From a virus (lineage: Duplodnaviria > Caudoviricetes): DNA of 64,000 nucleotides. The translations under genes were made by a program, and so were the position numbers. The DNA lies in IMG/VR virus record IMGVR_UViG_3300009082_000959; one strand, written 5' to 3'. A model generated the notes under the pieces. The model was not told the DNA's origin. It saw only the letters and a list, made by a program, of their open reading frames with translations, and searched no databases. Shown one piece after another: positions 4,510 to 48,541 of this stretch (position 1 is its first letter; every line of letters starts with the position of its first letter).

Positions 4510-5490
4510 ATGGCACTTAATATCAATGAACTAGTGTTATTGTCTGAAACACTATCAAAAAGTGGCAAAATAAAGCAGGCAAAGACTATAGAAGGCATGA
4601 TTGATAAATTATCAGCCGAATGGGACACAATGGATCCAGAAAAACAAAAAAGTTGGGTAGAGAGGCAGGACTGGCACACAAATCCCATCGAATACATAAA
4701 TCGTCCCGAGAAAAAACCAGAGCCACCGACATCTGGTGTTTCAACAAAAAACGAAGACGAAACGAGTATTGATGAGGATAAAATTAATGAAAAGGCACTA
4801 GAAGATGCCAATAAAGAGTTTAGTAAATTTTTATCTTATCTTGATTCTAGCGGCATATCTCCTCAATCGTTTTTTGATACCGTTCATGGGTCTGGTGGAA
4901 TTATATTGCGCAACAATCCAGAAACAAACAAACCAGAGGTGGTGAAAGATTTTCCAGAAGATAATGAAATAGACTCTTCGGCCGCAATTAATAAAAATGA
5001 TGTATTATATAAACTTGCAGAAATGGCAGACAGATTAGATTCTATTGGGGCAACAAAAGAGGCAAATCTTATAGATAATTTCATATCAAAACACGCATCG
5101 GGTCCTGTAGTATTAAAGAGTGCAGACGACCAAGAAAAAAAGTATGATGCAAAATATCATCATTCGTTGCAGGTTAGAGAACCAAAAAATAAGGATAAAA
5201 AAGAAACAAAACATAGTGTCAAAAACTATGAAGGCGGGCACGGATGCAGCACACTTAGCACAAGATACTGCCCAGAACATCCTGGGGTTATGCTCGGAAG
5301 AATAGGCGAGCTTACATATCAGTGTTCTCTAGATGGCCATGTTTACAACTACGAAGCAGGCTGGGTTGATGCCGATGGGACAAATCACCCAGGAGGATCT
5401 GTTGCTGGCCAGACACCGGACTCTACCGGATATGATACGCCACACAGAGTATTTGATAGTAGAGAGAATACATTAAATAGGGGAAAATAA
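4510..5490 (+). CDS. Hairpin-tag protein (two tag copies) with Cys-containing C-terminal domain
   Basis: LVLLSETLSKSGKIKQAKTIEGMI and LYKLAEMADRLDSIGATKEANLIDNFISKHA; CSTLSTRYCPEHPG...CSLDGH. Confidence 0.75.
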   Translation: MALNINELVLLSETLSKSGKIKQAKTIEGMIDKLSAEWDTMDPEKQKSWVERQDWHTNPIEYINRPEKKPEPPTSGVSTKNEDETSIDEDKINEKALEDANKEFSKFLSYLDSSGISPQSFFDTVHGSGGIILRNNPETNKPEVVKDFPEDNEIDSSAAINKNDVLYKLAEMADRLDSIGATKEANLIDNFISKHASGPVVLKSADDQEKKYDAKYHHSLQVREPKNKDKKETKHSVKNYEGGHGCSTLSTRYCPEHPGVMLGRIGELTYQCSLDGHVYNYEAGWVDADGTNHPGGSVAGQTPDSTGYDTPHRVFDSRENTLNRGK

Positions 5491-5493
5491 ACA

Positions 5494-6045
5494 ATGTATA
5501 GTATTGATGAACTTATTGCAATAGCAGACTCTCTTGATGCGTGTGGATTACATTCAGAAGCAGAAACTATAGATGGTATGATAGAAAAATTGGCCGCACC
5601 GACGTCTGGTGCTATTCCATCATTTGTGACAAGGCTAAAAGAGACTTTTGTTTCTGAAATTGGTGATTCTGGGGACCGCATTAGCCTTGAATACATTTTA
5701 GAGGTAATAGACAGTGTTGCACAAAATAGTGGTCCATTTACTGGATATAAGGCTGGCCCAGAAGAAGTAAATAGACTTAAAGTTATGTCACAAGAGCCGG
5801 CGAGCAAGGCACTACACTTACTTGAGCTTCAGAGATCGGTAAAGGACATTAAATCTGAGTTAGACAAAGAAAATGACCCAGAAAAAATCAAATTGTTGCA
5901 GCGTGATTTGAAGAGCGATCAAGAAGACTTAGACGAAATACTCAAAAAAGTAGAACAATGGAAGAGTGGTAAAAGAGATAATGATATTGCATCATATGAT
6001 CTATTTACAAAGATATACAATAGTCGCGGAGAAAATATAGAATAA
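5494..6045 (+). CDS. Hairpin-tag protein
   Basis: N-terminal LIAIADSLDACGLHSEAETIDGMIEKLAA. Confidence 0.75.
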   Translation: MYSIDELIAIADSLDACGLHSEAETIDGMIEKLAAPTSGAIPSFVTRLKETFVSEIGDSGDRISLEYILEVIDSVAQNSGPFTGYKAGPEEVNRLKVMSQEPASKALHLLELQRSVKDIKSELDKENDPEKIKLLQRDLKSDQEDLDEILKKVEQWKSGKRDNDIASYDLFTKIYNSRGENIE

Positions 6046-9268: not shown

Positions 9269-9938
9269 TATTACAAAAAAATGCATGATACGTGGAAACG
9301 GAGCATCTGCTTGTCCGTTTGGCCTACCCGCTATAGAGGCTTGTAAGTGTGCAGGAAATTGTGTTGATAGAATGGCTCCGGTCGACCAAGCAAATGAGCA
9401 GGAGACAGAGAGACTGGCACGTGCAAACAGAATAGTCTATGCATATTGTAAAGAAAAATGTAATTGCAAATATGCAGACAAAATAATTGAATCCAAGGAA
9501 AAGGTTGATTGTGATTTTGGTGATACTGGCGCTGGCCAACGAACACCATCATTTAGGGGAAGTCCGCTATACCCGCAAACATTTCATGGCATAGGTTTGG
9601 ATGGATTATATGGTTATCCACTGGGATATTACTCAGATAATAATGAAAGCAGAAATATGTTTTTTGGGTTATTTAGTTTAATCGGAACACACACAATACA
9701 AGAATTGGTTAAAGTTGGAGACCAATACGATAAGTCAGGAGAGCTAGAGAAAGCAAATATAGTTGATGATTTGTTAGTAAAATTGAAAGGAATAAGAGAT
9801 AATAATAGGGAATCGTTTGATACAATTGAATCATATTTAGAAGAATTTAGAAAAAAATACGATAGAGCCAGGTCTGACACCGGATTGTTGTGGGACTTGT
9901 CGCAAAAATGGTACGGCGCCCGACAATCTGCAAAATAA
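9255..9938 (+). CDS. Cys-rich protein with hairpin tag
   Basis: N-terminal Cys cluster (CPFGLPAIEACKCAGNC...CKEKCNCKY); LVKVGDQYDKSGELEKANIVDDLL. Confidence 0.7.
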   Translation: MASDNITKKCMIRGNGASACPFGLPAIEACKCAGNCVDRMAPVDQANEQETERLARANRIVYAYCKEKCNCKYADKIIESKEKVDCDFGDTGAGQRTPSFRGSPLYPQTFHGIGLDGLYGYPLGYYSDNNESRNMFFGLFSLIGTHTIQELVKVGDQYDKSGELEKANIVDDLLVKLKGIRDNNRESFDTIESYLEEFRKKYDRARSDTGLLWDLSQKWYGARQSAK

Positions 9939-12627: not shown

Positions 12628-14502
12628 ATGTCAGCAAACAAGTTATTTACAACGGCAGAACAATGGTTTGAAGACCTAAAAAAAGAAGTCTTAAAGATAG
12701 ACCCAGTGTCGTTTGCTGAAAACTATCTTGTCGTAGACGGAAAACCACTAAAACTTGGCGGCGGGACCGGCTGGAAATACCTTACTGATATTTACAGGTA
12801 CATGGCAACGAAAGCCATGGAAGAAGATGGGAAACCCGTAGTATGTGTTAAGGGTCGTCAGGTAGGCGCAACAACTGCCGCCACTGCACTTGAACTTTTT
12901 TTTTGCACCAGCGGGCTATACGGAACATCTCCAAATAAACCACCAATAAGACTTCTTCATTGTTTTCCTGCACTAGCTCTTGTGCAAAAATTCGCAAAAG
13001 ATAAATTAAGTACAATGATGAGAACATCAAAGGATAATTATATCCTTAATCATTCTCTTGGCTACGACGCTGAATCAAAGAAAAAGAGAATTGATGTTCC
13101 AGAAGATACTCTCACAGAAAAACAATTCACCAATGAAAATAGGCTTTGGGTTGATTCCAACGCCAATGATGCTCAAAGACTTCATGGTATGTCTTTGGAT
13201 GGTATTTTCTATGATGAGGTTCAGAGAATGAACCAAGATGACATAGGAAATAGCAAAAGAACCCTAACATCTGCTCGATATGGGCCCCGCGGACAAGGAA
13301 TCCAGATGTATTTTGGCACTCCTTTGCAGCGCGGTTCAAATTTTCACAAAATGTGGGAATCCTCTGACAAAAGATATTATCATCTTGGGTGTGAAAATTG
13401 TGGTCATTATTTTATGCTATATTCTCCTGGGAATGATGATTGGGAGAAAATATGGCTATATGCTAATGTTGTGGCTTGTCCAAAGTGTCACCACGAACAG
13501 GATAAAGTTGATGCAATAGAGCGCGGTAAATGGATTCCAATGCAACCAGTTCTGCCAGACGGAAAGGAACCACAGTATGTTGGATTTCATTTTAATCAAT
13601 TGCTGATACCAAATTTTCATAAAGAAACGGTCATTAAAGAAAAACCAGGAATACATCCAACAAACTCAGAGCGCATTTGGCAAAACGAAATATTAGGAGA
13701 GTTTTACAGTGGTGAAGATTTGCCAATGTCGGAAGAAGAAATATATAAGTATTGTAGAGATATAGACAGAAGCATTTCATTTGGAGGCCCAGGCACATCC
13801 ATAAAAAGAGTGCAAAGCAACAAGATTTATTCTTCGAGTAAAATTCCCACTTTTTTGGGCATCGACTGGGGTGGTAAAATAGACGATCCAAATTCCAAGA
13901 TAGGAAAATCGTTTTCTTGTATGGCAATTATATCTGTTGATAAGGATGCGGTAGTGAGAATAGAGAATGCATTTAAACTAAAAAAGAATGATTTGCAACA
14001 CAAAAAAGATGTAGTAAGGGAAATGTTCAGAAGATTTGATATCAATTGCGCTGTCGCAGACTTAGGTCATGGTAATGATATAGTTCCAGAGCTTCAGGGG
14101 GAATTTGGAAACAGGTTAATAGGAAGCATAAGCAGTGGTAGTCTAACTAATCCAACGAAATATGACCCAGAGGAACTAAGACTGATTATAAATCATCACG
14201 TATTACTGGAAGATTTATTCGCGCATATGAGAAAGGGTAAAGTATTATTTCCATGGAAAAGTTATGAGCAAATTCAGTGGCTTATAGAGCACTGCTGTTC
14301 AATGGAAAAAGAAATACACACAGTTCAGGGTCGAGTCATATCAAGATTTGTAAAGGGTACCGGACCCAACGACGGTCTTATGGCTCTCCTATATGCCTAT
14401 TTGGCGTATAAATTTTATCTAACGCAAGGGTTTACGATAAAGGCCCACCAACTAAATGCAAAAAGTGCCGGACCAATATTGGCTTATTTGCCAAGTTTTT
14501 AA
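12628..14502 (+). CDS. Terminase large subunit (lambda gpA-like)
   Basis: Walker A VCVKGRQVGATT, Walker B IFYDEV, coupling motif FGTP, CENC/CPKC zinc site, GFHFNQL, nuclease FLGIDWG. Confidence 0.9.
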   Translation: MSANKLFTTAEQWFEDLKKEVLKIDPVSFAENYLVVDGKPLKLGGGTGWKYLTDIYRYMATKAMEEDGKPVVCVKGRQVGATTAATALELFFCTSGLYGTSPNKPPIRLLHCFPALALVQKFAKDKLSTMMRTSKDNYILNHSLGYDAESKKKRIDVPEDTLTEKQFTNENRLWVDSNANDAQRLHGMSLDGIFYDEVQRMNQDDIGNSKRTLTSARYGPRGQGIQMYFGTPLQRGSNFHKMWESSDKRYYHLGCENCGHYFMLYSPGNDDWEKIWLYANVVACPKCHHEQDKVDAIERGKWIPMQPVLPDGKEPQYVGFHFNQLLIPNFHKETVIKEKPGIHPTNSERIWQNEILGEFYSGEDLPMSEEEIYKYCRDIDRSISFGGPGTSIKRVQSNKIYSSSKIPTFLGIDWGGKIDDPNSKIGKSFSCMAIISVDKDAVVRIENAFKLKKNDLQHKKDVVREMFRRFDINCAVADLGHGNDIVPELQGEFGNRLIGSISSGSLTNPTKYDPEELRLIINHHVLLEDLFAHMRKGKVLFPWKSYEQIQWLIEHCCSMEKEIHTVQGRVISRFVKGTGPNDGLMALLYAYLAYKFYLTQGFTIKAHQLNAKSAGPILAYLPSF

Positions 14503-15192: not shown

Positions 15193-18100
15193 ATGGAAAT
15201 ACGAAGAGGTCCATGGAAACCTGCTACAACCAATAAAGTAGCAACAGTAAAATCCAGTAGGTTCGGTGCGCGTCCAGCAACTGTTCTTAGTCCTGGTGTA
15301 TCAAATTCAGAGCACCATTTGGCTAATCGGCAGGCAGATACTGGCGCTATTCCCGAAAAAGTGTCAGAGTTTAGACAGGCAGAAATAATTAGAGCGACAG
15401 GATCCTCAAACAACCAAATCAAAGAGTCGCCTGCTCCATTATTATTATATAGTAATTCGTTCAAAAAATCTCAAGAAATAAAAGAAAATTTCCTGAGAAA
15501 AAGTGCCGCGTCTGTGACTTCTGGTGGATATAGTTCTGCTGGCGGCGGAACAACCATACAGGCACCAGAAATATATTCTCCACTATTTCAAATTGCAAAC
15601 CTACAGCTTCCGCGCGAAAGAATAACAATGAATGCGTGGAATAGAAATTTTTATGATACACATCCATTGGTTCACAACTGCATTAATTTGCACGCAACTT
15701 ATCCAATTAATAAAATAAACATTAAGTGCAAAGATGGCAAAATAGAACAATTTTTTAAGGATATGGCAGAGAACATAGACTTAATAGGTGTTTTGCAGGG
15801 AATGGCACTTGAGATTTTTAAGATTGGTGAGTGTTTCCCCTATGCCGAGTTGGATGAAAGAACTGGTGCTTGGAAAAGTATCGTAATTCAAAACCCAGAC
15901 TACATCCACATAAAAACATCTGTATTGGGAGGTGATCCAGTAATATCACTATCACCAGATGCGGCACTAAAACGATTGGTTCAAAGTAATAATCCAGCAG
16001 ACATACAATTAAGAAGCCAAATAGACGATGAAATTCTATATCACATTCGTAAGGGAAACAACATTCCTTTGGATAATTTTCACATAAGTCATTTGGCCCT
16101 TAAATCAGCTCCCTACGATGTGCATGGAACATCTCCAATAGTTACTGTCTACAAAGATCTTATGCTGTATGACAAACTTAGGGAGTGTTATTCTTCCGAT
16201 ACAGAAGTTTTGACTGATTCTGGTTTTATGAATGGTCTTGAATTGTCATTAAAGTATAAGAACAGTAATCAAAGCGATTTGCCATCTATTGCTTGTTTTA
16301 ATTCAGAAACAGAGATGGTTGAGCATCATAAACCAATAAAAACACATATATCAGAATATAATGGAAATATGTATAGGTTTAAGGGTAAAAAAGTAGATAT
16401 TCTCGTTACACCAGAGCATCGTATGTGGGTCAATAAGAACAAAAAGACTGGTTGGTCTGGATGGCATTTTGAACAAGCAAAGGATGTTAGCCCGTCCTAC
16501 TGGTACAAGTTTAGATGCCACGCAAAATACAATGAAGGCGAAAAGGTTGAATTTATTGATGTTCTTGGTAAAAAAATACCATCGGAACTTTACATGAAGG
16601 TTTTGGGACACATAATTTCGGAAGGATGTGTTTATCAAAGTTATAAAAACGGAAGATATGATAATAATGTTTCTATATGTCAAAATATAGAATCTAAATA
16701 TCAACAAAATATGAGAAATAATTTTAAGCAGTTTGCTGAATTATTGGGGAAAAATCTCGTAGAAAATACTAAGGTGGTTGGGTCTGGGTTTAGTGCACAT
16801 TCTCCAAAAAATAAGTGGGAAGCATTAGTGAGTGGTAAGGATTTAGTAAATTACTTCAAAAAAGAAATTGGAACAAATGATGTTTGTAATTCCGGAACCA
16901 AAAGAATTCCTAGGTGGATATTTGGACTACATTCTGATTTGTTAAAGTGTTTGTTGGAATCATTAATGGAGGGCGACGGGCATTTTTCAAGTAGTTTGTA
17001 TAATACAACATCAAAAGGCTTTCGTTATGACACTGGCTCAAAACAACTAGCAGATGATGTATATGAGTTAGTCTATCGCCTTGGATTTGTTCCGTTATTG
17101 CGAACAGTAGATAGGACTGGAGAAAATACTGGGAAAAATTTATTAGAATACTCTGTCTCTTGGTCAAACACACATTATGGCCGTGAGCCGCGTGTGTATG
17201 GAAAATCAGATTCAAAGCATCACGGTGCCCATATTGGTCAAACAGATTATGATGGTTTAGTTTGGTGCTTCGAAGTTCCTACTGGATTATTTATAACACG
17301 CAGAAATGGCAAAATAACTATTCAGGGAAACTCTAAATATGCACAGGCTGATAGCCTTGTAAATCCAATTACACTAATAAAAGTTGGTGGGGCTGGAGAA
17401 GGAGAATACAAAGCAACCGGTGATGACTTGGAGAAATGGCGTCAAATAATGGAGTGTCATGATGAAGAGACCGAGGTATTGACTGACCACGGTTTTAAGA
17501 AGTTTTTTGATGCAATTGATTACACAAGGAGCGATGATGTTGCTGTTTACACTGCATCACCAAAGACTGGAATAAAAATAGCTTGTTTTAATAATGATAC
17601 AAAACAACTTGAGTATCATATTCCATCCAGAGCTACTTTATATGATTATTCTGGAGAAATGTATCATTTCAGTGGCGGAAAATTAGATATCAAAGTTACA
17701 CCCAATCACAGAATGCTTGTTACAAGAAAACTAAAGAAAGGTTGGTCTAATAGTGAGATAATTACTGCTGAAAACCTTTCACTGGGGACACACTATAGGT
17801 TTAGGTCAGTCGCAAAATTCAACGGTGAAGAAAAAGAATCAATTAATGTTTGTGGGAAAAGTATAAAAACTGATGATTATTTGGAATTTTTGGGAAATGT
17901 TATAAGTGAGGGATATGTTTGTAAGATAAATGACAAGTATTATAATAGCATAACATTATATCAAGAAAATTGTTCTCCAGAAAAAAATAGTATGGAAACC
18001 AATTTAGAAAAAATAGCAAATTGTTTTGGGAAAACCATACAATCAAAAACAATTGATAATAGCCATACTCCATTTTCCGGCACAAATACAAGCACGATGT

Positions 18101-33599: not shown

Positions 33600-34216
33600 T
33601 GAATCAAAAAGAAAATGAAATTCTTTCACTACTGGTCAAAATGGCAGACGAATTTGATCAAACCGGTGACCATGATTTGGCAGCCAATGTAGACAAAACA
33701 ATTACGTCTATGGCCAGCAGAAGGACACCACTAAAAGAACTAGACGACGAAACCAAGAAAAACCTTATAATTTTTATTCATGATGCAAACCAAAATACCT
33801 CTAAATCAGTCAAAGGCTTAAAAGAGTTATTTAGACGACTTAGATATTTTGATTTAGTTGATTCAATTAAAGACCTTGGTTTGGATAGAGTTGTCAAGGA
33901 TATGAGCAAAACGCAAGAGTGTCTCGATGGCGCAAAAAAGAAATTTTTTGAGTTAATACACGGAAAGAAACCATCAAGACAGGACTTGGAAAAATTATTT
34001 GATACGTTGTCTGATGCTGCCGAAAAATCAGGTGGCCCACTAGATTTCTTTGAATCACAGCTTAAAAAAGAAATTGTGGATAGTGAAAACGAAGACAGCG
34101 ATGACGAAGAGGAAAACGAGGACACGGAAGAAGATGAGAAAGAAACAGAGATAGACGAAGAATCACTCAAAGAATTTTGGTCCGATTTAGAAAACTACAA
34201 GGACAAAGAAGAATAA
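33599..34216 (+). CDS. Hairpin-tag protein with acidic C-tail
   Basis: LVKMADEFDQTGDHDLAANVDKTI. Confidence 0.75.
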   Translation: MNQKENEILSLLVKMADEFDQTGDHDLAANVDKTITSMASRRTPLKELDDETKKNLIIFIHDANQNTSKSVKGLKELFRRLRYFDLVDSIKDLGLDRVVKDMSKTQECLDGAKKKFFELIHGKKPSRQDLEKLFDTLSDAAEKSGGPLDFFESQLKKEIVDSENEDSDDEEENEDTEEDEKETEIDEESLKEFWSDLENYKDKEE

Positions 34217-35062: not shown

Positions 35063-35063
35063 A

Positions 35064-35732
35064 ATGGAAAAGAAGTGCAAGAGATGTAATGAAACAAAGA
35101 CCGAGGAATGTTTTTATCTCAATAAAAAAACATTAAAACGCGCAAATATATGTATTGCTTGTGACAAGAAGAGATTAAAGGAATATAGAATCAAAAACAA
35201 GGACAAGTTGTCTGCGCGGACGAAAGAGTGGCAAAAACAAAACCCAGAAAAAGCAAAAAAGAATAGGGACAATTGGGCAAGAAAACACAAAGAAAAAGTA
35301 AATGCAAAAAGCAAGCGGTGGAAGGATAAGAATAAAAAACATTCATTAGAATATAATAGTGCTGTATATGCCAGTAGAAAACATGATCCAATGTATATGC
35401 TTCCTAGAAATTTGAGGACTAGACTATATCAGGCAATTAAACATAATTTTAAGTCTGGCTCAGCAGTGGCGAGTCTTGGTTGTTCTATAAAGAGTTTTAA
35501 AAAATATATGGAATCTAAATTTTATGATAATAAAAAAACAAAAATGAAGATGTCTTGGGATAACTATGGCAAAAATGGCTGGCACATTGATCACATTATC
35601 CCTTTGGCAAGTTTTGATTTAAGTGACGCTAGTCAGCTTGCAATAGCATGTCACTATACTAATTTACAACCGTTGTGGGCAGAAGAAAATTTTAAAAAGG
35701 GCAATAGAGTTGAGGAGATCAAAAATGTTTAA
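35064..35732 (+). mobile_element. HNH homing endonuclease (paralog 4)
   Basis: WHIDHIIPLASFDL...ACHYTNLQPLWAEENFKKGN. Confidence 0.85.
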
Positions 35733-38700
35733 AAAACTTGGAGAAAATTTTGATTTTTCTTCATCCAGTTTGCTTGAACCAAAACAAGCACTACAAGACA
35801 CGGAAATTGCTGCACGTTTTGTTAAAATGGCAAAAAAGTTACGTCGAATTGCGCCAAAGGCTAAAGATTTCGTGTACGGAGATGCCATTATTATGCACTC
35901 GGCCGAGGCTTCGTTGATCGACTTGAATACAGGAAAACCAATATTAAACAAAAATGGAGAGCCGGTTCAGGGATGTTTTGAGGACTTTATAAACAAAAAA
36001 GGCGTAAAATCTGTTAGATGGATTTCAAAAGATGGTATTAAGCCATATAAAAATAAAAACGGTGATATTTTCAGTGAAGCAGAGTTGTTAAAAGCATACA
36101 AAAAATGGATAGGTAAGCCTCTGTGTAAAGATCATATCTCTGATTCGGTTGATGGTATTCGAGGAATAATCATTGATACATATTATGATAGTAAATTCAA
36201 GAGGGTACGCGCTCTTTTTGCCTTAGACCGCAAAAACTACGGTGACTTGGCTCGTAAAGTTGAGTCTGGTTATGCTACAGCGGTTTCCATGGGCACTGCG
36301 GTTGGTAGAGCGGTTTGCACAGAATGCGGAAATGTTGCAGTTACCGAGAAAGAGTACTGCAATTGTATTCGTTCCCACGCAAACTATGGCGAAATAAACC
36401 TGGACCTAAGCCCACTAGAACTATCTCTCGTTGTTAATGGTGCTGATGGACTCGCTCATGTTAGAAATGTCATCGCTTCTATGAATAATTATGTAGAAAC
36501 TAAACAGGCACGAATTTGCGAGTTGGTTAATGATAGATGCGTTAATCCAACAGAACTACAGAGTATAGCCGATTCTCTCTCGGATATGCAAACCAAAATA
36601 AGTGGATTACTTGGTCTTACGAAAAAAGCAGATCTCGGAGAAGATGTCGCTGCTTTAAGGGAAATTTCAAAAATGGAAGAGTCCCTCAATGATCCAGAAA
36701 AATCAGAAGAGACCAAGGAAAAACTTAAAAAACGAATCCATGATCTTGAAATACAACTTGATCGCGCTGGTGAAGAACAAAAACAAGAAAAAACTTGGCC
36801 ACCAGTTAGACCAGGACCAGTTCCTTCATTGCCAAGTTCTATGGACGGTGATGCAAGCGATTTAGGCAAACCAAGCACAACTACTTTCAATGGATTTGCC
36901 GAACCAAACCTACGATATGCGAGTTTAGAAGGAGACAAACAGGGTGCTTTGTCAGTTGAATTAGGTCTCCTTCGATCCAAAATAGATAAAATGCAAGACA
37001 GTTTGAATGTATTGAATACAAAAGTCTCTAAGGAGGAGAATATTATGAATTCTGCTAGATTACGTGCGCGTGCTAAGGCACGAAGGGCTTATTGGCTTGG
37101 CGGTGGTGGTATCAATGAACCAACACCTGGACAACCAAAGTATGAGAAAGATCCTATGGCCGAGAAAGTGCGAGATAGTGAAGATAAGCAAATGGTGGGA
37201 GAACCACTTGAAACTGGATCCGAAGGCTTGCACCCTGGTGATGAAGAGAAATTGAGAGACGCTGGTCGCAATGGTCTAAACCTAAGTAAGGCCGAACTCA
37301 AAGAACGCGCTTTAAAGCGTCGTGGTTATTTCCAAGGTGGCGGCGGCATTAATGAACCAACACCTGGGCAGCCAAAGTATGAGAAAGATCCTATGGCCGA
37401 GAATGTTCGTGACAAGGAAGATAAGCAGTTGGAGACCTATGACATGGGCGGGACCGATGGAACCGTTCCTGGTGATATGGAAATAAAGAAAACACTATTG
37501 CGTGCCAAGTTGCGCGCAAAGTTTGTTAAGGTTGCTGATAGAACCGGTGGAATCAATAAGGCTGCTTCTCGTTGGGAAGTTTATGCTGGCGATAAGATGA
37601 TTCTTACTGCTACCGGCAAAGAAATCTTTGATGACCAGCTCGAAGGTAGTTGGGATTATCTAAGTTCAAGAGATTACGGCAAAGATGTTATCGCTGCAAT
37701 TAGGTCTGACGGTTTTGATCGTGTTGCCTACTTGCTTAAGGGCGCAGCCGATCCAATGCCTGCCGATCCGTTGGCAGGAGATCCTTTGGCTGGTCTTCCA
37801 GCCGCTGCTCCAGCTCCGGATGCGGCTCCACCAGCCGCAGAAGCACCTGCTGAGCCAAAGAAAGAAGAGGGCGGGGTTAAAGAGAAGGTAGATTCTGCTC
37901 TCGGCGAAATGGAGGAAGCAATTGAGTCAGTTAGATCCGCCGTTACAGAGGGTGGCGAAAAGTTGGTTGATATAGAGGTAAAGGTTGATGAGGATGCAAA
38001 GGGTGAAGGCAAAGATTCAACCCCAGTTGCTGCCCTTACTGCCGCTGAAAGAAGCGAGTTAATGGAATTGCATGCGTTGCTAAATGAATCAGCAGACGAA
38101 TTGGCCCTAATAAGTGAAGCACTAGAGTCAAATAAGTCAGACCGCAGGGTTGTTAATGCCGCTTACCAGGCTCTTTCTGATGCTCAAATTATCCTAGAGG
38201 CCAAGAAAAAGAAGGTGAAGGACGACGAAGAGGAAGACAAGGAAGATGGTAAGGGTTTCTTTGGCAAAAAGGACAAGAAGGACGAAGACAAGGACGACAA
38301 GAAAGATAAGAAGGACGAGGATAAAGACGACAAGAAGGAAGATAAGGACGAGAAGAAAGATAAGAAGGATGCGAAAAAGGACAAGAAGGACGAAGACAAG
38401 GAAGATGAGAAGGAATCAAAGGCACAGAAGTTGCTAAATGACGCTCTTCGCGTTCGTTCTGAAAACCGCGCCGCATTGCTGTCAAAGATGGCAGAGCCCG
38501 AATTAAAAGACATGGTTAAGGAAAAGGTTAATACAGAAATTAAGAAGGAGTTAGAGGGCGGATTGCCAGCCGATGATGCAATGCTAGATGACAGTGGGTG
38601 TCTTGGTTGCACAGATGACGTTGTAGAAAGCGATGAATCTGCAAAGCTGGCTCGACGGAAGGCTCGTGAAGAATTGGTTGCTAATGCCGCCAAGAGTCTT

Positions 38701-39399
38701 TTGGGCAAGTACGAGTTGGATCTTGGTCCAGCATCAAACGCCACCGAACCAACTTATTTCCAAGCTCATCCAAGTGGCAAGGGAACTGTTACCGAGCTTA
38801 CTCACACAAAAACACCTGAAGCTAAGGTTGAGACAATTTCAGAAGTTCATGATGTTATGCGTGATGTAGCAGAGTCAGGTCCTCGTAATGTTCGTGAAGC
38901 CGCTGCTCTATTACAGGAAGCAATTGTTAAGGGTGCTTTCTCGTCTGCCGATGTGGACGGCTTAGTTGCAGAGGGTAAGGTTGATGCTGCTGCTGCCGCT
39001 TATTGGAAGAAATACTTTGCTATGGCTCCCGATTCAAATAATTTTGGAGCGGAACTAAGCAAGGAATTTGCTACCAAGAAGAAGGCATCAGAGGATACCA
39101 ATTATAAGGTTAAGCTTCGCAGAGCTTATGACATTGGTCTCATGGCACAGGAAAAGGGAATGATAGGTGAAACCCGTGCATCACTTGATACCTATGTTGA
39201 TGAGGTTATGCAGTTTGATGACGCTGCATTTGAATCAACCAAGCGTATTGTTGCTGGTATGAGCGGCCGTAGTAAGAAGTCGTCTCTTCCAAGGGTTGGA
39301 GCTGATGCAGCTAATGAAGCTATGAATGTTACTGCCAGCTCAGATGTTGCTCCTGTTGTAAGTTTGACAGACCAACTCGGTAGCTTGGGTTGGAAGTAA
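35725..39399 (+). CDS. Prohead (maturation) protease fused to a scaffold-like region
   Basis: GAGGAG SD; NKNGDIF...KPLCKDH...VSMG...ELSLVVNGAD fits the HK97/assemblin-type His/Ser protease; long coiled-coil and low-complexity C-terminal region. Confidence 0.75.
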   Translation: MFKKLGENFDFSSSSLLEPKQALQDTEIAARFVKMAKKLRRIAPKAKDFVYGDAIIMHSAEASLIDLNTGKPILNKNGEPVQGCFEDFINKKGVKSVRWISKDGIKPYKNKNGDIFSEAELLKAYKKWIGKPLCKDHISDSVDGIRGIIIDTYYDSKFKRVRALFALDRKNYGDLARKVESGYATAVSMGTAVGRAVCTECGNVAVTEKEYCNCIRSHANYGEINLDLSPLELSLVVNGADGLAHVRNVIASMNNYVETKQARICELVNDRCVNPTELQSIADSLSDMQTKISGLLGLTKKADLGEDVAALREISKMEESLNDPEKSEETKEKLKKRIHDLEIQLDRAGEEQKQEKTWPPVRPGPVPSLPSSMDGDASDLGKPSTTTFNGFAEPNLRYASLEGDKQGALSVELGLLRSKIDKMQDSLNVLNTKVSKEENIMNSARLRARAKARRAYWLGGGGINEPTPGQPKYEKDPMAEKVRDSEDKQMVGEPLETGSEGLHPGDEEKLRDAGRNGLNLSKAELKERALKRRGYFQGGGGINEPTPGQPKYEKDPMAENVRDKEDKQLETYDMGGTDGTVPGDMEIKKTLLRAKLRAKFVKVADRTGGINKAASRWEVYAGDKMILTATGKEIFDDQLEGSWDYLSSRDYGKDVIAAIRSDGFDRVAYLLKGAADPMPADPLAGDPLAGLPAAAPAPDAAPPAAEAPAEPKKEEGGVKEKVDSALGEMEEAIESVRSAVTEGGEKLVDIEVKVDEDAKGEGKDSTPVAALTAAERSELMELHALLNESADELALISEALESNKSDRRVVNAAYQALSDAQIILEAKKKKVKDDEEEDKEDGKGFFGKKDKKDEDKDDKKDKKDEDKDDKKEDKDEKKDKKDAKKDKKDEDKEDEKESKAQKLLNDALRVRSENRAALLSKMAEPELKDMVKEKVNTEIKKELEGGLPADDAMLDDSGCLGCTDDVVESDESAKLARRKAREELVANAAKSLLGKYELDLGPASNATEPTYFQAHPSGKGTVTELTHTKTPEAKVETISEVHDVMRDVAESGPRNVREAAALLQEAIVKGAFSSADVDGLVAEGKVDAAAAAYWKKYFAMAPDSNNFGAELSKEFATKKKASEDTNYKVKLRRAYDIGLMAQEKGMIGETRASLDTYVDEVMQFDDAAFESTKRIVAGMSGRSKKSSLPRVGADAANEAMNVTASSDVAPVVSLTDQLGSLGWK
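37099..37427 (+). repeat. Direct repeat pair encoding GGGGINEPTPGQPKYEKDPMAExVRDxEDKQ
   Basis: Copies at ~37099-37190 and ~37336-37427. Confidence 0.9.
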
Positions 39400-40937: not shown

Positions 40938-41420
40938 ATGTCACAGTCTGGAGAAGAGATGATTGCGGGACTTTCGAAACTTTTGGACAGTAAAGTGGTA
41001 ACAAAAACAGCTTCTACAAAGGTAGAAACACAGAAAGTTCCCAAAAAGAAGGCAAACGTAATAAGCATATTGAAAGAACTTTCTAAATTAGCATCAACAC
41101 TTGATGAGTCTGGAGCATGGGTTGCTGCTCAACTGGTTGATGATTCTATAACCGCGATTTCATCGAACATGGACGAAGACGAAGATCCCACAGAGATTTT
41201 TGAGGAAGAACTACCAGTCAGTGGTAACGAAGAAGGAATGGGGTCTAGGATGGAACGCACCTTACAGGATGATGGCCAGCCGCCACAAGAAATGACTCCA
41301 GAAGGACTTGGAATGAGTGATTTCAATGAAGCCGGTGGGACGGTGCATGAAGACAAAATGGACGCACTATTCCGCGATCCAGCTTTCCGCGCAAAAGTAA
41401 AAGAATTTTTGGGCCAATAA
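40938..41420 (+). CDS. Hairpin-tag protein
   Basis: AGGAG SD; VTKTAS motif; LSKLASTLDESGAWVAAQLVDD. Confidence 0.75.
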   Translation: MSQSGEEMIAGLSKLLDSKVVTKTASTKVETQKVPKKKANVISILKELSKLASTLDESGAWVAAQLVDDSITAISSNMDEDEDPTEIFEEELPVSGNEEGMGSRMERTLQDDGQPPQEMTPEGLGMSDFNEAGGTVHEDKMDALFRDPAFRAKVKEFLGQ

Positions 41421-43309: not shown

Positions 43310-45508
43310 ATGAAACACATAGGATTTAGCGAAAGCACTGTTATGGGAGAATACGCAAGAATAGCGAGTGAGCAAGGACTCATTAAGGTTGCTGATATTC
43401 AGTTTGGAGAGCCAGAGATAAAAACGGATACAAGGTGGTCTCCATCTATGTCTGTGGATGACTACACTGACTATGTTCTTAAAAATGTATTTAAACTAGA
43501 TACATCTGTTGCTCCAACAATTCAGTCGGCACAACTATTTCCACAATTATTGGTCAAATACGAACAGTATCTCCGCAGTGTTGTTTCTGCACAGGTTGGT
43601 GCGCTGTCTGGTAGAGAAGATCGCGCTGCCGCTCACAAATTTCATTCTGATGTAAGAAAGGCAATTGGCAATAAGGTATCAGAATGGTATAAACTTAATA
43701 AATTACCAGTAGCGCAGAGCGAAGTTTCTTTTATTGTCCCGGCTCAAAAATTATATTCAGCAATAGTTGAGGGCATTGCCCCAATTAGCCAAGAAGCAAA
43801 TGACGGTGGTGCAAACCCACTGACACCTCATATGCAACGTCTTAACAGTACATTTGCAAATCTTATGAAGCAGTATGGTAACGATCAGGCAAAGGTGAGA
43901 CCACTATACAACAAAAAAGTTGATGAAATGATGAAATCATTAGAGAAATTTAAAAGTAATCCCGCCAATATACCTGTGCTAAAACAATTCGAGAGTTCTG
44001 CCAGACAAATTGGAATAGATGTAGACAAAAAGAAATCCAGCAAACTTGATATTGATTTATCCAAGCGAGCCAAGGGTAATTCTGGCGGAGTTTATGATGT
44101 TTCTGGCGAAACCGGAGAACAATTGATAGATTCTGCTCACCCAGGCAAAATGAGAACAGAACTAACCAGCAAAACCGATGAAAATTTGGTAGAAACAATC
44201 ATAGAACAGCAGGTTCGTGACATCGAAGTTGCAAACAGTATTCCAAAGGGAACATACGCTGCCCTAGTAAGTCTTGTCGCTAAACTCAATAAGATGGGGT
44301 ATTCAAAGCAGGCAGAACCGCTAAAGAAAATGATCGTTAAATTAAACGGCTTTAATATGGTGGATGTAGAACTTATATCTCTGGCTATGAAACTAAAAGA
44401 CGGTGGCCTTAAAAAAGAGGCAGTAAAAGTAATACGATTACTATCAAAAAAAGCACAGGGAACCCAGGAATCGGTTAATGAGACACTACCTAAGGTTTCC
44501 GGAAATCTATCAAGTCTAGTGTCTTCAATGAATGCCTTGGGACTTGGAAACAACCAGGAATTCGCAGGTATTTTAGATGAATTAAAGAGAGACCTTACTA
44601 ATATACAGAACATACAAGCTGTAGCAGCGATGGATAGAAAAACGGCAGATGGGGCTCAAAATTCACTTAAAGAGATATTAGCAAACCTCAATAAAGCACA
44701 ATCAGTAATTGTTGTTGCATCAAGGTCTGGCGAATTTACTGGTATGCCCGGTGATATAAGTAGTGTAAGCAAAAGTATAGGTTCCACAATTTCATCTGTT
44801 GTTGCTGCATCAGTGGCGGTTAGGTCATTTGCAGAGACCCTGCCGCAAGAAGTTGCACAGCCAACCGAACAAGAAAAGAAAAAGATACCGTTCATAAAGC
44901 AGTTGTTGTCTGAAGAGAAATTTGCCAATGAGTGGGGTAAGAGATTTAATGCACAATTAGAGGAAATAAGGGAAAAGAATGATGTCTCCGAACAGTATCT
45001 TCCTGATGAAATTAGTGCACTGCGAGCAAAAACCGATGGAAGTTGGGATGAGCTAAAACGAAGCCTAAGCAATATAGTTAAGGTATGGCGATCTAAAGGA
45101 AAGTGGAATGATTTTATTAAATACATAGATGATGTTATGAAGAATGTTAATATGGATTTTAAGGACAAGGACAGTCCCTCTGACACAGTTCCCGATGTAG
45201 AACAAGAAACAAAGATATCAGGTGACCGCAGCGCAGAGGATATTAGAAGATATAATCAAATGATTCATGATCGCGCATTGGAGCTAACAAAGTGGTCTTA
45301 TGCAAATTCCGCAAAATTAATCGGAGTTGATTTGAGGAATTCTGGCATTACCCCAGCACAAGCACGGCAATGGAGAGATAAACTATATGAAGACGCTTTT
45401 AGTTTCATAAGGGATGTGACGCCGTATGTGCTGGATGCTGCTGCAAGCCCGCTTCAAGACTTAAGACAAGATTTTACTGATTTTGTTAAAGAGAAATATA
45501 AGAAATAA
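43310..45508 (+). CDS. Large probable internal virion protein with LSKRA/LSKKA sites and degenerate tags
   Basis: GGAG SD before ATG 43310; IKVAD, LSKRA (44057), LSKKA (44441); AHP...LVE...EQQ block shared with 47960..48541. Confidence 0.75.
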   Translation: MKHIGFSESTVMGEYARIASEQGLIKVADIQFGEPEIKTDTRWSPSMSVDDYTDYVLKNVFKLDTSVAPTIQSAQLFPQLLVKYEQYLRSVVSAQVGALSGREDRAAAHKFHSDVRKAIGNKVSEWYKLNKLPVAQSEVSFIVPAQKLYSAIVEGIAPISQEANDGGANPLTPHMQRLNSTFANLMKQYGNDQAKVRPLYNKKVDEMMKSLEKFKSNPANIPVLKQFESSARQIGIDVDKKKSSKLDIDLSKRAKGNSGGVYDVSGETGEQLIDSAHPGKMRTELTSKTDENLVETIIEQQVRDIEVANSIPKGTYAALVSLVAKLNKMGYSKQAEPLKKMIVKLNGFNMVDVELISLAMKLKDGGLKKEAVKVIRLLSKKAQGTQESVNETLPKVSGNLSSLVSSMNALGLGNNQEFAGILDELKRDLTNIQNIQAVAAMDRKTADGAQNSLKEILANLNKAQSVIVVASRSGEFTGMPGDISSVSKSIGSTISSVVAASVAVRSFAETLPQEVAQPTEQEKKKIPFIKQLLSEEKFANEWGKRFNAQLEEIREKNDVSEQYLPDEISALRAKTDGSWDELKRSLSNIVKVWRSKGKWNDFIKYIDDVMKNVNMDFKDKDSPSDTVPDVEQETKISGDRSAEDIRRYNQMIHDRALELTKWSYANSAKLIGVDLRNSGITPAQARQWRDKLYEDAFSFIRDVTPYVLDAAASPLQDLRQDFTDFVKEKYKK

Positions 45509-47332: not shown

Positions 47333-47963
47333 ACGAGCCTTTGAAATAGAGGATTTATGGCAACAGATTAGTTCTGTTTGGCACACTAACGAGGGTTTTT
47401 GTGAAAATCTGTTTAGGATTTCATCATACCTTTTGCCATTTGTTCCTGGTTTGGGGTGGAGTGTTTTTATACTTGAAAAAATTGCTGCGTTTTTTGGATT
47501 TGGTTTAGCAGACTTGGGTGCAGCAATTGATAGGTTTGCTGGGTGGGAACCTAGTAATAATTTAAACATTGGTCAGAGCGAGTTTTCTTCTGTTTTGGTA
47601 GATTTCATAACCACTCAATCTAAATCTGTAAATGCTTCTAAAAACCTAGAGCAAATAACAAAAACTGCTTGGTTTGGTGGTCTAATAAAACTAATCCAAT
47701 TATTGCCAAGAGCAATTGTTCCACTAACGAATGCAGTCAAGTTTATGCTACTGACATTTGGATTTTCAAAGGTTGGTGAAATATATTCTGCCGTAAGTGG
47801 AACAACAAAGGCCCCGGGTGCCTTGATGTTGGAAAACTCAAAACCCCAAAAAACAGAATTGCTATCAGAAGAGAACATTAGTGCGTTTAAAGACCTTATA
47901 TCAAACCCACTCAATGTTGTAAAACCACTAACAGACCTATATAAAGTAATGGAGACAAAATGA
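47313..47963 (+). CDS. Hydrophobic probable virion protein with a short LSKRA leader
   Basis: GGGAGG SD 8 nt before GTG 47313 gives MQHVLSKRA|F; internal ITKTAW; hydrophobic segments. Confidence 0.65.
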   Translation: MQHVLSKRAFEIEDLWQQISSVWHTNEGFCENLFRISSYLLPFVPGLGWSVFILEKIAAFFGFGLADLGAAIDRFAGWEPSNNLNIGQSEFSSVLVDFITTQSKSVNASKNLEQITKTAWFGGLIKLIQLLPRAIVPLTNAVKFMLLTFGFSKVGEIYSAVSGTTKAPGALMLENSKPQKTELLSEENISAFKDLISNPLNVVKPLTDLYKVMETK

Positions 47964-48541
47964 GTATTACTAAAAACGAAATCATGGATGAATTTTTCAG
48001 ATTAGCAAAAGAACAGGGATTCGCTGATGAAGTTGAACCAAATCCTTATCAAGAGGACGAAAAGGTTATACGTGAAAAGAGAGTTAAAACTCCTGAAAAA
48101 AATATCATAGAAGAAGCTCATCCGGAACCAATTTATGTTGCAGAGGCTTTTGGAGATGGTGGTTTGGTTGAAAATCAAGTTGAACAGCAAAAGAAATTAA
48201 TTGATATGATAAATAAAATGCCAACAGGTAATCTCACTGCTCATTATGCATCAACCGCAATAGAGTTGCTTAAAATTGCCAACAAATGCGATGACTTGGG
48301 ACACACAAAGGCTGCTGATTTAATTACCACTGCGGCAGAAAACTTACTTGAAATGGCTGAAAAAAATGATCTTGGATTTGAATGCCCTGGGTGTGAGAAA
48401 CCAGAAGACCAATGCACTTGCGACAAATCAAATGATGCTGAGTATTGTGATAAGTGCGACCGAAGTATGGAAAATTGCATTTGCGATAAAGAATCAGGCA
48501 ACGAGAAAGCCTTCCCTTTTACCAAGGCTCCTATCGTTTAA
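47960..48541 (+). CDS. Hairpin-tag protein with Cys-rich C-terminus; 0-frame partner of a candidate -1 frameshift
   Basis: LLKIANKCDDLGHTKAADLI; CPGC..CTC..CDKC..CIC; ends F-P-F over C CCT TTT. Confidence 0.75.
   Translation: MSITKNEIMDEFFRLAKEQGFADEVEPNPYQEDEKVIREKRVKTPEKNIIEEAHPEPIYVAEAFGDGGLVENQVEQQKKLIDMINKMPTGNLTAHYASTAIELLKIANKCDDLGHTKAADLITTAAENLLEMAEKNDLGFECPGCEKPEDQCTCDKSNDAEYCDKCDRSMENCICDKESGNEKAFPFTKAPIV
48514..48520 (+). promoter_or_regulatory. Candidate -1 ribosomal frameshift heptamer C CCT TTT
   Basis: Perfect X XXY YYZ in the frame of ORF 47960; the -1 frame is open from 48490 to 50283. Confidence 0.6.

What the first reader, a model, noticed from the sequence alone, without database searches (positions are those of the whole stretch)
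4510..48541. A shared ~28-aa helical-hairpin tag on at least 14 unrelated proteins: candidate capsid-loading signal
Seen in sequence: consensus L-x-K-L-A-[ND]-x-L-D-x-x-G-x(4)-A-x-x-[IV]-D occurs in ORFs 4510 (x2), 5494, 9255, 28320 (x2), 29388, 29789, 30700, 31528, 32411, 33599, 40938 and 47960, with degenerate copies in 42863 and 43310. It is attached N-terminally, internally or C-terminally to different cargo (Dps-like, hexapeptide beta-helix, PG-binding-like, Cys-rich). It is often followed directly by a K/R-x-A site (SKHA, EKLA, VKSA, RNA-A). It is absent from TerL, primase, IF-3, the endonucleases and the tail genes. Inference: it is a modular docking tag that recruits proteins to the scaffold or core and is then trimmed off, analogous in role to the T4 capsid-targeting sequence but unrelated in sequence.
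Basis: partly seen in the sequence, partly recalled or inferred. Interest (0 to 1): 0.9.

Follow-up and report, generated by a model that had tools for sequence, protein, structure and literature searches.

The report
Portable helical-hairpin tag on phage proteins
An uncultivated giant phage from freshwater sediment, and many related phages, attach the same 34-residue two-helix module to a dozen otherwise unrelated proteins encoded among the head-assembly genes; it is most likely an address or docking label for proteins built into the young capsid, but where it sends them has not been shown.

Summary
A profile built only from sequences outside the window finds 13 clear copies of the motif in 12 plus-strand ORFs. 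Two more copies are marginal (4510 copy 1, 43298). The copy in ORF 42863 is not supported. Minus-strand ORFs give nothing.

The motif is a 34-residue helix-turn-helix with TPR-like spacing: L-x-K-L-A-[DN]-x-L-D-x-x-G-x3-E-A-[DN]-x-[IVL]-D-x2-[IL]-x-K-x-A. It matches no Pfam or PHROG family. It occurs in 2,366 cluster representatives of a 1.84-billion-protein library, at N-terminal, internal and C-terminal positions, often 2-3 copies per protein.

Evidence for a head-targeting role is indirect:
- Here and in close relatives the tagged genes lie inside the head block, between portal and protease-scaffold and upstream of the capsid gene.
- The most over-represented pentapeptide, [LI]SKRA, separates the enzyme modules of the neighbouring 2602-aa polyprotein. 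It has the same shape as the tag's end (phi-x-K-x-A), which is rare when the tag is C-terminal.
- Modules that are embedded in the polyprotein here carry the tag as separate genes in other phages.

No binding partner was found, and trimming is plausible only for some copies. This scan found the same tag earlier on another genome (e1-5337359). Best reading: a prohead docking module (confidence about 0.5).

The parts
4519..4617 (+). Tag copy 1 of ORF 4510 (aa 4-36), N-terminal, degenerate
   Evidence: External profile iE 0.021. AF2 gives a helical hairpin with pLDDT >90. The copy is conserved across the 4510 family. It ends in IDKLS.
4999..5100 (+). Tag copy 2 of ORF 4510 (aa 164-197), internal, ending in ISKHA
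   Evidence: External profile iE 3e-14. ISKHA lies at the end of helix B and is followed by a disordered linker. K194 is conserved in >=90% of the family.
5500..5598 (+). N-terminal tag of ORF 5494 (aa 3-35), ending in IEKLA
   Evidence: iE 3e-13.
9690..9785 (+). Internal tag of ORF 9255 (aa 146-177)
   Evidence: iE 7e-8 with the external profile.
28794..28997 (+). Tandem double tag at the C-terminus of the Dps/ferritin-like protein 28272 (aa 175-206 and 210-242)
   Evidence: iE 2e-8 and 3e-12. The cargo matches Pfam DUF5856/Ferritin and phrog_3636. AF2 on aa 168-242 gives four helices, pLDDT 80, pTM 0.62. The double tag is a conserved unit in 30 other proteins.
29391..29492 (+). N-terminal tag of ORF 29388 (aa 2-35), ending in IEKLG
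   Evidence: iE 1e-11.
30575..30676 (+). C-terminal tag of ORF 29789 (aa 263-296)
   Evidence: iE 7e-10.
30703..30804 (+). N-terminal tag of ORF 30700 (aa 2-35)
   Evidence: iE 1e-13.
31528..31626 (+). N-terminal tag of ORF 31528 (aa 1-33). The cargo is a hexapeptide beta-helix (aa 136-283).
   Evidence: iE 3e-15. The beta-helix domain (phrog_5070) is widespread in other phages without the tag.
32420..32521 (+). Near-N-terminal tag of ORF 32387 (aa 12-45)
   Evidence: iE 2e-11.
33617..33718 (+). N-terminal tag of ORF 33599 (aa 7-40)
   Evidence: iE 2e-8.
41064..41165 (+). Tag of the small acidic protein 40938 (aa 43-76), two ORFs (39632, then 40938) downstream of the protease-scaffold gene
   Evidence: iE 7e-6. 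The small ORF next after the protease-scaffold gene in the tag-poor relative G003 (which has no 39632 homologue) keeps a borderline tag, iE 0.005.
44351..44455 (+). Marginal tag in ORF 43298 (aa 352-386), ending in LSKKA
   Evidence: External profile iE 0.045. The spacing to LSKKA is the same as tag to ISKHA in 4510.
48257..48349 (+). Internal tag of the Cys-rich protein 47960 (aa 100-130)
   Evidence: iE 8e-7.
20467..28275 (+). 2602-aa polyprotein whose enzyme modules are separated by six LSKRA motifs (aa 9, 250, 741, 917, 1478, 2201). It carries no tag.
   Evidence: LSKRA is the most over-represented pentapeptide (8 copies, 228-fold over expectation). The sites are conserved as ISKRA in G001. 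Pfam finds TopoIB, a 2H phosphoesterase/Acb1-like domain and PolyA_pol. Modules of it occur as tagged stand-alone genes in G009 and G007.
35710..39399 (+). Prohead protease (N-terminal about 300 aa) fused to a scaffold-like region. LTKKA lies at aa 303 and LSKMA at aa 924.
   Evidence: phrog_18299 matches aa 115-223. Alignment of 64 homologues shows K-x-A conserved at the protease/scaffold junction. Profile-profile comparison finds no tag-like hairpin.
51990..53015 (+). Major capsid protein (HK97 fold)
   Evidence: phrog_2522, E 8e-77. There are 1798 homologues, many carrying PF25209.
15193..19422 (+). Portal protein, enlarged by an intein with a LAGLIDADG endonuclease
   Evidence: phrog_16240. 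Pfam LAGLIDADG_3 and Intein_splicing.
12628..14502 (+). Large terminase
   Evidence: phrog_675, E 1e-57.

Best explanation
The tag is an autonomous 34-residue helix-turn-helix with TPR-like spacing and an acidic surface. The phage lineage fuses it through flexible linkers to either end, or the interior, of unrelated proteins. It most likely works as a common docking module that brings these proteins into the assembling prohead core, alongside the untagged enzyme polyprotein.

In a subset of copies, the tag's last turn (phi-x-K-x-A) probably doubles as a cutting site for the HK97-type prohead protease, so the cargo would be released from its acidic tag before or during DNA packaging.

Shown:
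- the motif, its modularity and its predicted fold
- its wide distribution
- its position in the head block
- the over-represented [LI]SKRA motif

Inferred:
- that [LI]SKRA is a protease site
- that the tag docks to a head component or to other tags
- that tagged proteins are packaged
For: 1. Reality and modularity
- 13 copies score iE <= 7e-6 with a profile built from non-window tag copies.
- A1 finds 2,366 representatives at E <= 1e-3.
- Among the best 150 proteins, 105 copies are N-terminal, 167 internal and 42 C-terminal.
- D-8, G-5, A0 and D+4 are 88-98% conserved.
- AF2 gives confident hairpins with disordered linkers and pTM 0.27 for 4510.

2. Head context
- In the window the tagged genes run from portal/polyprotein to protease-scaffold and on towards the MCP, all on one strand.
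- In G001, 10 of 10 tagged genes lie in the 43-92.5 kb head block of a 162-kb contig (P about 3e-6).
- In G010 the tags lie 6-19 kb from the MCP.
- The gene order portal, small proteins, protease, scaffold, MCP is that of the T4 head module, where the interval encodes prohead core proteins (established knowledge).

3. Protease link
- [LI]SKRA is the top over-represented pentapeptide in WIN and G001 and is conserved at orthologous module borders.
- The same motif ends the tags of 4510 and 43298.
- phi-x-[KR]-x-[ASG] follows 38-43% of N-terminal and internal tags but 9% of C-terminal ones. A small residue at +11 occurs in 67% against 26%.

4. Rosetta-stone evidence
- A polyprotein repeat module is a stand-alone, N-tagged gene in G009.
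- The polyprotein nucleotidyltransferase module is a C-tagged gene in G007.

5. Cargo
- Cargo includes DNA-binding types (ferritin/Dps, HMG box, AP2).
- In G007 the tagged genes neighbour large lysozyme-domain proteins and a tail-fibre gene.

6. Ancient copies
- Three conserved head-block proteins (the 4510, 40938 and 47960 families) keep degenerate tags even in the tag-poor relative G003.
Against: - No virion proteomics exists for any tag-bearing phage, and no cultured phage with the tag was found.
- No binding partner was identified. Profile comparison finds no tag-like element in the scaffold or MCP.
- In G009 most tagged genes form a cluster about 100 kb from the head genes, and in G007 they are scattered over about 90 kb.
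- C-terminal tags have no upstream protease-like site, so removal cannot be general.
- The phi-x-K-x-A pattern could be only the amphipathic end of helix B plus a helix cap.
- The beta-helix cargo is an accessory, non-structural gene in many temperate phages.
Confidence: 0.5

Rival explanations
1. The hairpin is a general hetero-oligomerisation module. Tags pack against each other, as neighbouring TPR repeats do. Multi-tag proteins such as 4510 would cross-link single-tag clients into a multi-protein assembly. That assembly need not be inside the capsid: it could be an intracellular complex or condensate, or a virion-external structure.
For: - Tandem double tags are a conserved autonomous unit, and some proteins consist of nothing else (71-74 aa).
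- AF2 packs the double tag as one four-helix unit, pTM 0.62.
- Many proteins carry 2-3 tags on long disordered linkers.
- A second conserved hydrophobic stripe (-19, -15, +6, +10) must be buried by something.
- No tag-specific receptor gene distinguishes tag-rich from tag-poor relatives within the head block.
Against: - The near-invariant Asp residues give an acidic surface that would repel a like surface unless bridged.
- The two distant tags of 4510 are not predicted to pack together (pTM 0.27).
- This reading does not by itself explain the head-block location or the protease-like motif. It is compatible with the best explanation if the assembly is the prohead core.
Confidence: 0.22
2. The tag anchors diverse proteins to the outside of the particle (capsid decoration, neck, tail or baseplate), in the way that shared N-terminal adaptor domains anchor alternative tail spikes.
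For: - Conserved tag with variable cargo, in runs of consecutive small genes.
- In G007 the tagged genes lie near a tail-fibre gene and lysozyme-domain proteins.
- One cargo is a beta-helix.
Against: - In the window and in G001 the tagged genes lie upstream of the MCP, between portal and protease, and not among the tail genes.
- Cargo such as Dps/ferritin, HMG box, AP2 and small acidic proteins does not resemble fibres.
- Tags also occur internally and C-terminally.
Confidence: 0.1
3. The tag binds a conserved host protein (a chaperone, protease adaptor or other hub) and so recruits many phage proteins to one host machine.
For: - Tags are 55-60% identical between phages whose other shared genes are few.
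- TPR-type hairpins are classic peptide and partner binders (established knowledge).
Against:
- This reading explains neither the head-block clustering nor the protease-like motif.
- A single hairpin lacks the groove of a multi-repeat TPR domain.
Confidence: 0.08
4. The copies are only diverged solitary TPR-like repeats spread by duplication and domain shuffling, with no common function.
For: - The profile also picks up genuine TPR proteins (P0022, P0112).
- The weak PDB sequence hits and top structural neighbours are TPR/PPR proteins.
Against: - Near-invariant residues that are not TPR features (D-8 98%, D+4 88%) are kept across thousands of proteins and in all positions.
- No Pfam TPR model matches.
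- 7-21 copies per phage contig, with clustering.
Confidence: 0.05

Closest known systems
Phage T4 capsid-targeting sequence (CTS) of internal proteins IPI-III and Alt (Mullaney and Black 1996, as cited in PMC10052503)
   Same: - One shared element on unrelated proteins encoded in or near the head module.
- Proposed delivery into the prohead core.
- Proposed removal by the prohead protease.
- Acidic character.
   Different: - The T4 CTS is a roughly 10-residue N-terminal linear peptide cut at L/I-x-E.
- The element here is a folded 34-residue helical hairpin. It also occurs internally, C-terminally and in multiple copies.
- It shows no sequence similarity to the CTS, has a different candidate cut motif (phi-x-K-x-A), and packaging is not demonstrated.
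Tetratricopeptide (TPR) / PPR helical-hairpin repeats
   Same: - 34-residue helix-turn-helix with the same spacing of small and hydrophobic positions (LA-x2-L-x3-G-x3-EA).
- Tandem copies with a 35-residue period in the Dps-like protein.
- TPR/PPR proteins are the best, though weak, sequence and fold matches.
   Different: - Solitary or paired rather than in arrays of three or more.
- No Pfam TPR model matches.
- Two near-invariant Asp residues that are not TPR features.
- No significant structural match (best Foldseek E 0.3).
Encapsulin cargo-loading (targeting) peptides
   Same: A terminal tag that would direct cargo, here including a ferritin-like protein with a C-terminal tag, to the inside of an HK97-fold shell.
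   Different: - Encapsulin tags are short linear peptides that bind a pocket on the shell protein.
- Here the tag is a folded hairpin of unrelated sequence, on many cargo types, in a DNA-packaging virus.
- Binding to the capsid protein is not shown.
P22 scaffolding protein C-terminal helix-turn-helix coat-binding domain
   Same: A small helix-turn-helix that docks a protein to the inside of a procapsid and leaves at maturation.
   Different: - The P22 domain is basic and sits only on the scaffolding protein (from general knowledge, not tested here).
- The tag here is acidic and sits on many non-scaffold proteins.
- The protease-scaffold protein of this phage has no tag-like element.
Propeptides of head proteins in giant phages SPN3US / phiKZ (PMC10052503)
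   Same: Many head and ejection proteins of a giant phage are made with regions that the prohead protease removes. That paper suggests a targeting role for them.
   Different: Those propeptides are long (mostly 111-254 residues), N-terminal, not a shared portable motif, and cut at a different motif.

Membership tests
T4-type capsid-targeting sequence | Short (about 10 residues) strictly N-terminal leader | tested here: not met
   The element is a 34-residue hairpin. 105 copies are N-terminal, 167 internal and 42 C-terminal.
T4-type capsid-targeting sequence | Removed by the prohead protease at a defined site directly after the tag | tested here: inconclusive
   The candidate motif [LI]SKRA is over-represented and conserved. 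It sits at the tag end in 4510 and 43298. A looser phi-x-K-x-[ASG] follows about 40% of non-C-terminal tags. Cleavage itself has not been observed.
T4-type capsid-targeting sequence | Sufficient to load a foreign protein into the capsid | not testable with these tools
   This needs a tag-reporter fusion in an infected host.
TPR repeat | 34-residue helix-turn-helix with the TPR spacing of small and hydrophobic residues | tested here: met
   The consensus spacing is LA-x2-L-x3-G-x3-EA-x2-phi. AF2 gives helix-turn-helix. The profile also retrieves true TPR proteins.
TPR repeat | Significant match to curated TPR models or solved TPR structures | tested here: not met
   No Pfam TPR family matches at E <= 1e-3 in the window proteins or in 129 representatives. 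The best PDB sequence hit has E 0.009, made of repeated 13-residue pieces. The best Foldseek hit has E 0.3.
TPR repeat | Tandem arrays of three or more repeats forming a superhelical groove | tested here: not met
   Copies are solitary or paired, and multi-copy proteins have long disordered spacers.
Encapsulin targeting peptide | Short linear terminal peptide that binds the HK97-fold shell protein | tested here: inconclusive
   The element is folded and 34 residues long, so the 'short linear' part is not met. Binding to the MCP could not be assessed.
P22-type scaffold coat-binding helix-turn-helix | Located on the scaffolding protein | tested here: not met
   hhalign of the tag profile against 64 protease-scaffold homologues finds nothing.

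The most novel reading that the evidence does not exclude
The hairpins from many different proteins, together with multi-tag hub proteins such as the 4510 family, assemble with one another into the prohead core itself. The cargo would then be its own scaffold. The protease would dissolve this network by cutting at the tag ends, so the packaged and injected protein set of a whole clade of giant phages could be read from sequence alone. That set includes a ferritin-like protein, as in encapsulins.
Probability: 0.2. Interest if true: 0.85.

Novelty: new variant of a known kind. Interest (0 to 1): 0.62.

Why it matters
If the tag is a capsid address label, three things follow.
- The packaged, and probably injected, proteins of a large and abundant clade of uncultivated giant phages could be listed from sequence alone. 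The clade's capsid family has about 1,800 members (E <= 1e-10).
- It would be a folded, portable, position-independent loading module. That is unlike the short linear T4 and encapsulin signals, and it could be useful for loading foreign proteins into HK97-fold shells.
- It would tie the tagged proteins to the neighbouring polyprotein as one pre-made cargo delivered with the DNA. The polyprotein holds topoisomerase IB, an Acb1-like 2H phosphoesterase and a nucleotidyltransferase.

Even without a known function, the hairpin is a well-defined family of thousands of members that no Pfam or PHROG model matched in my scans.

Tried and rejected
- **Co-fold.** I folded the tag (29388 aa 1-42) with the MCP and two scaffold segments (35710 aa 396-700 and 929-1229), using my own alignments. 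The verdict was 'no answer' (score 0.00). This is no evidence for or against binding.
- **Cultured phages.** tblastn of a tag-only peptide and of a three-tag protein against 50,697 phage records found nothing. The tag is too short for tblastn at that database size, so this does not show absence.
- **Related loci from the tag alignment.** I used a degenerate DNA pattern instead; about half of its 33 hits were chance.
- **Fold searches.** Foldseek against the PDB gave no significant match for the double-tag model or the 4510 model. Only a weak rubredoxin-like resemblance appeared for the 4510 C-terminus.
- **Tag-like elements in head proteins.** hhalign of the tag profile against the protease-scaffold and MCP alignments found none.
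- **Rejected idea: the tag is more conserved than the capsid genes, so it binds a host factor.** G007 is a fragment that ends at the gene normally just upstream of the MCP, so the comparison is unsound.
- **Rejected idea: a receptor gene is present only in tag-rich relatives.** None is apparent within the head block.
- **Whole genome.** No whole genome is held for this window, so I could not scan the full phage. I used the 162-kb relative G001 instead.
- **Literature.** Three full-text searches found no description of this tag.
Full report
**What the window is**

All long ORFs lie on the plus strand. Family searches identify the following.
- Large terminase: 12628-14502.
- Portal: 15193-19422, enlarged by an intein with a LAGLIDADG endonuclease.
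- A 2602-aa polyprotein: 20467-28275. It contains topoisomerase IB, a 2H phosphoesterase/Acb1-like domain and a PolyA_pol-type nucleotidyltransferase.
- A 1229-aa protein: 35710-39399. Its first roughly 300 residues are a prohead protease (phrog_18299). The rest is a charged, repeat-rich scaffold-like region.
- An HK97-fold major capsid protein: 51990-53015 (phrog_2522, E 8e-77).
- Many homing endonucleases interrupt the block.

The phage is uncultivated.
- Its protease-scaffold protein lies on a 289-kb contig.
- The DNA is held by one freshwater-sediment metagenome run.
- Close relatives are fragments of genomes that CheckV puts at several hundred kilobases.

**The observation**

Looser forms hit seven, and none hits the minus strand. 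A profile built from those seven and iterated on the window gives 11 domains with iE below 1e-11. The best minus-strand ORF scores 2.2.

To reduce circularity I rebuilt the profile from 311 tag copies taken from proteins outside the window; those proteins were themselves first retrieved with the window-derived profile A1. Results:
- 13 copies with iE <= 7e-6 in 12 ORFs: 4510 copy 2, 5494, 9255, 28272 twice, 29388, 29789, 30700, 31528, 32387, 33599, 40938, 47960.
- Two marginal copies: 4510 copy 1 (0.021) and 43298 (0.045).
- No support for 42863 (1.4).
- Best minus-strand score 3.9.

**What the motif is**

Over 313 copies from the best 150 library hits, the consensus is [IL]-x2-L-[IV]-K-L-A-[DN]-x-L-D-x2-G-x3-E-A-[DN]-x-[IVL]-D-x-phi-[IL]-x-K-x-A. 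Counting from the invariant Ala (position 0), the conserved positions are L-16 85%, A-12 91%, L-9 86%, D-8 98%, G-5 96%, A0 98% and D+4 88%.

Both helices carry the same A-[DN]-x-phi-D element, which gives an acidic face.

The spacing (LA-x2-L-x3-G-x3-EA) is that of a TPR unit. Several results agree with this, though none is significant.
- The profile's weak PDB hits are PPR/TPR proteins.
- The profile also drags in genuine multi-repeat TPR proteins (P0022, P0112).
- The Foldseek neighbours of the modelled double tag are almost all TPR proteins, but the best E is 0.3.

No Pfam or PHROG family matches the tag, either in the window proteins or in 129 representatives.

AF2 models:
- The tandem pair at the end of the Dps-like protein folds as four helices (pLDDT 80, pTM 0.62).
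- Both tags of 4510 fold as confident hairpins (pLDDT about 90). They are joined to the rest by disordered linkers, with overall pTM 0.27.

So it is an autonomous module, not part of the cargo folds.

**Distribution**

Against 1.84 billion cluster representatives, the 15-copy window profile finds 2,366 proteins at E <= 1e-3 and 98 at E <= 1e-10. These proteins are 35 to over 1,000 residues long. The tag is N-terminal in 105 copies, internal in 167 and C-terminal in 42. Almost every one of the best 150 proteins has two or three copies. Named sources give only 'hypothetical protein' or, once, 'DNA-binding ferritin-like protein'.

Large viral contigs hold 7-21 copies each, often as runs of consecutive small genes that start directly with the tag.

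Recognisable cargo among 129 representatives includes ferritin/DUF5856, AP2, HMG box and zinc ribbons. Most cargo has no family.

The beta-helix cargo of 31528 is common in other phages without the tag. This shows that the tag was added to pre-existing domains.

**Link to the head: position**
- In the window the tagged genes sit between portal/polyprotein and protease-scaffold, and on towards the MCP.
- In the close relative G001 (162 kb), all 10 tagged genes lie in the 43-92.5 kb head block, which holds 47 of 154 genes (P about 3e-6).
- In G010 the tags lie 6-19 kb from an MCP that is 88% identical to the window's.
- The order portal, small proteins, protease, scaffold, MCP matches the T4 head module, whose portal-protease interval encodes prohead core proteins (established knowledge).
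- Against this, in G009 (TerL 47%, MCP 73%) seven tagged genes form a cluster about 100 kb from the head genes, and only one lies between portal and protease. Parts of that cluster are homologous, beyond the tag, to the window's 28-34 kb cluster. The cassette therefore appears to have moved as a block.

**Link to the head: a protease-like motif**

- LSKRA is the most over-represented pentapeptide of the window (8 copies, 228-fold over expectation). ISKRA plays the same part in G001 (6 copies, 101-fold).
- The sites are conserved at orthologous module borders while the upstream sequence diverges.
- Related forms lie at the protease/scaffold junction (LTKKA). There, K-x-A is conserved in the majority of 64 homologues.
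- The same motif lies in exact register at the end of the tag in 4510 (ISKHA) and 43298 (LSKKA). 4510 copy 1 (IDKLS), 5494 (IEKLA) and 29388 (IEKLG) have the same shape.
- In the 4510 model, ISKHA is the last turn of helix B and is followed by a disordered stretch.
- Across the library set, phi-x-[KR]-x-[ASG] at +7..+11 follows 38% of N-terminal and 43% of internal tags but only 9% of C-terminal ones. A small residue at +11 occurs in 67% against 26%. So this feature belongs to the junction with the cargo, not to the hairpin fold.

That fits a cutting site, though a helix cap before a linker would also fit. C-terminal tags have no such site upstream, so removal cannot be general.

**Link to the head: exchange with the polyprotein**
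- G009_38242 is an N-tagged 206-residue protein homologous to the repeated module that follows LSKRA in the polyprotein.
- G007_110494 is a C-tagged protein homologous to the polyprotein's nucleotidyltransferase module.

Being tagged and being part of the polyprotein thus look like alternative ways of handling the same cargo.

**Ancient and recent copies**

G003 is a complete 472-kb relative with an MCP 70% identical and a syntenic head block. It has no strong tags. However, its orthologues of 4510 and 47960 hold degenerate tag-like hairpins. The small ORF right after its protease-scaffold gene, the counterpart of window ORF 40938, holds a borderline tag (iE 0.005).

So three conserved head-block proteins seem to carry old copies. 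The spread onto accessory cargo is lineage-specific.

The 4510 family is the most widespread tagged protein. It has two tags, a conserved W-x-E-x-DTEQSKRYD segment and a C-terminal rubredoxin-like zinc ribbon.

**What is not shown**

No partner was identified, so whether the tags bind each other, the scaffold, the capsid protein or something else is open.
- Profile-profile comparison finds no tag-like element in the scaffold or MCP.
- No gene within the head block distinguishes tag-rich from tag-poor relatives.
- No cultured phage with the tag was found, so no virion proteome can be consulted.

**Comparison with known systems**

In role the closest analogue is the T4 capsid-targeting sequence. 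The giant-phage propeptides discussed in PMC10052503 are also close; that paper notes that T4 propeptides target proteins to the prohead core. In form the tag differs from both: it is folded, 34 residues long, independent of position and multi-copy.

In sequence pattern it is TPR-like, but it fails the membership tests for curated TPR models and for tandem arrays.

The ferritin-like cargo with a C-terminal tag recalls encapsulin loading, but the signal is of a different kind.

Three full-text literature searches found no description of this tag.

This scan reported the same TPR-like hairpin tag on another genome (e1-5337359). I reached the TPR-like reading before seeing that note, so the two agree. 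They are not independent evidence of function.

**Verdict**

Estimated confidences:
- Docking module for proteins of the prohead interior, with protease trimming in a subset: about 0.5.
- Self-associating module without a proven capsid link: about 0.2.
- External virion anchor: about 0.1.
- Host-factor binding: about 0.08.
- No common function: about 0.05.

It is a new variant of a known kind of system, pending any experiment.

Noticed in passing
window 20467-28275: The 2602-aa polyprotein is encoded two small ORFs downstream of the portal gene. Pfam finds topoisomerase IB (aa 47-240), a 2H phosphoesterase / 2'-5' RNA ligase / Acb1-like domain (aa 769-883) and a PolyA_pol nucleotidyltransferase (aa 1515-1652). 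Six LSKRA motifs separate the modules, and the first ends a 13-residue leader. This looks like a pre-made enzyme cargo cut apart by the prohead protease.
   Followed up: partly
window 15193-19422: The portal gene is 1409 codons against 560 in relative G009. The extra part matches Intein_splicing and LAGLIDADG_3, so it is an intein with a homing endonuclease inside the portal.
   Followed up: partly
G001 (loci L163) 89221-92470: In the close relative, the capsid gene matches the window MCP in three separate ORFs (aa 1-98, 108-163, 164-341) spaced about 1.1 kb apart. The gene is probably interrupted by introns or other insertions.
   Followed up: no
window 748-1788, 10761-11999, 34220-35732, 42139-42870, 51152-51904, 53245-54777: The head block is unusually dense in HNH, endonuclease VII-like and LAGLIDADG homing endonuclease genes.
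   Followed up: no
window 39300-39399 (C-terminus of 35710): The protease-scaffold protein ends in ...SLTDQLGSLGWK, and alignment A3 shows SLxxQLxxLW conserved. From memory, this resembles the G-S-L core of encapsulin targeting peptides. It could be the tail that binds the capsid protein. This is a lead only and was not tested.
   Followed up: no
P0026, P0094, P0104, P0117 and G001 67739-68671 (after the double tag): Many double tags are followed by a conserved basic stretch of the form K-T-P-Y-K-T-[HW]-K-G-K-D-E-K-P. More generally, C-terminal tags end in short Lys/Arg-rich tails (36% K+R).
   Followed up: no
window 299-745: A 148-aa protein with a sigma-70 region 4 match lies at the start of the head block. 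It is conserved at the same place in G009 and G003 and may be a phage late-transcription factor.
   Followed up: no
window 41436-42128 and 50393-51082: Two beta-rich proteins of unknown family are conserved across all relatives (41436: 52% identity to G009). 50393 always lies just upstream of the MCP, also in G007. They are candidate minor capsid or decoration proteins.
   Followed up: partly
G003 122721-121882 and 124237-123521: In the tag-poor relative, the portal-protease interval encodes a protein with a tyrosine-phosphatase-like HCxxGxxRTG motif and a protein that looks like a lytic transglycosylase. These are possible untagged head cargo.
   Followed up: no
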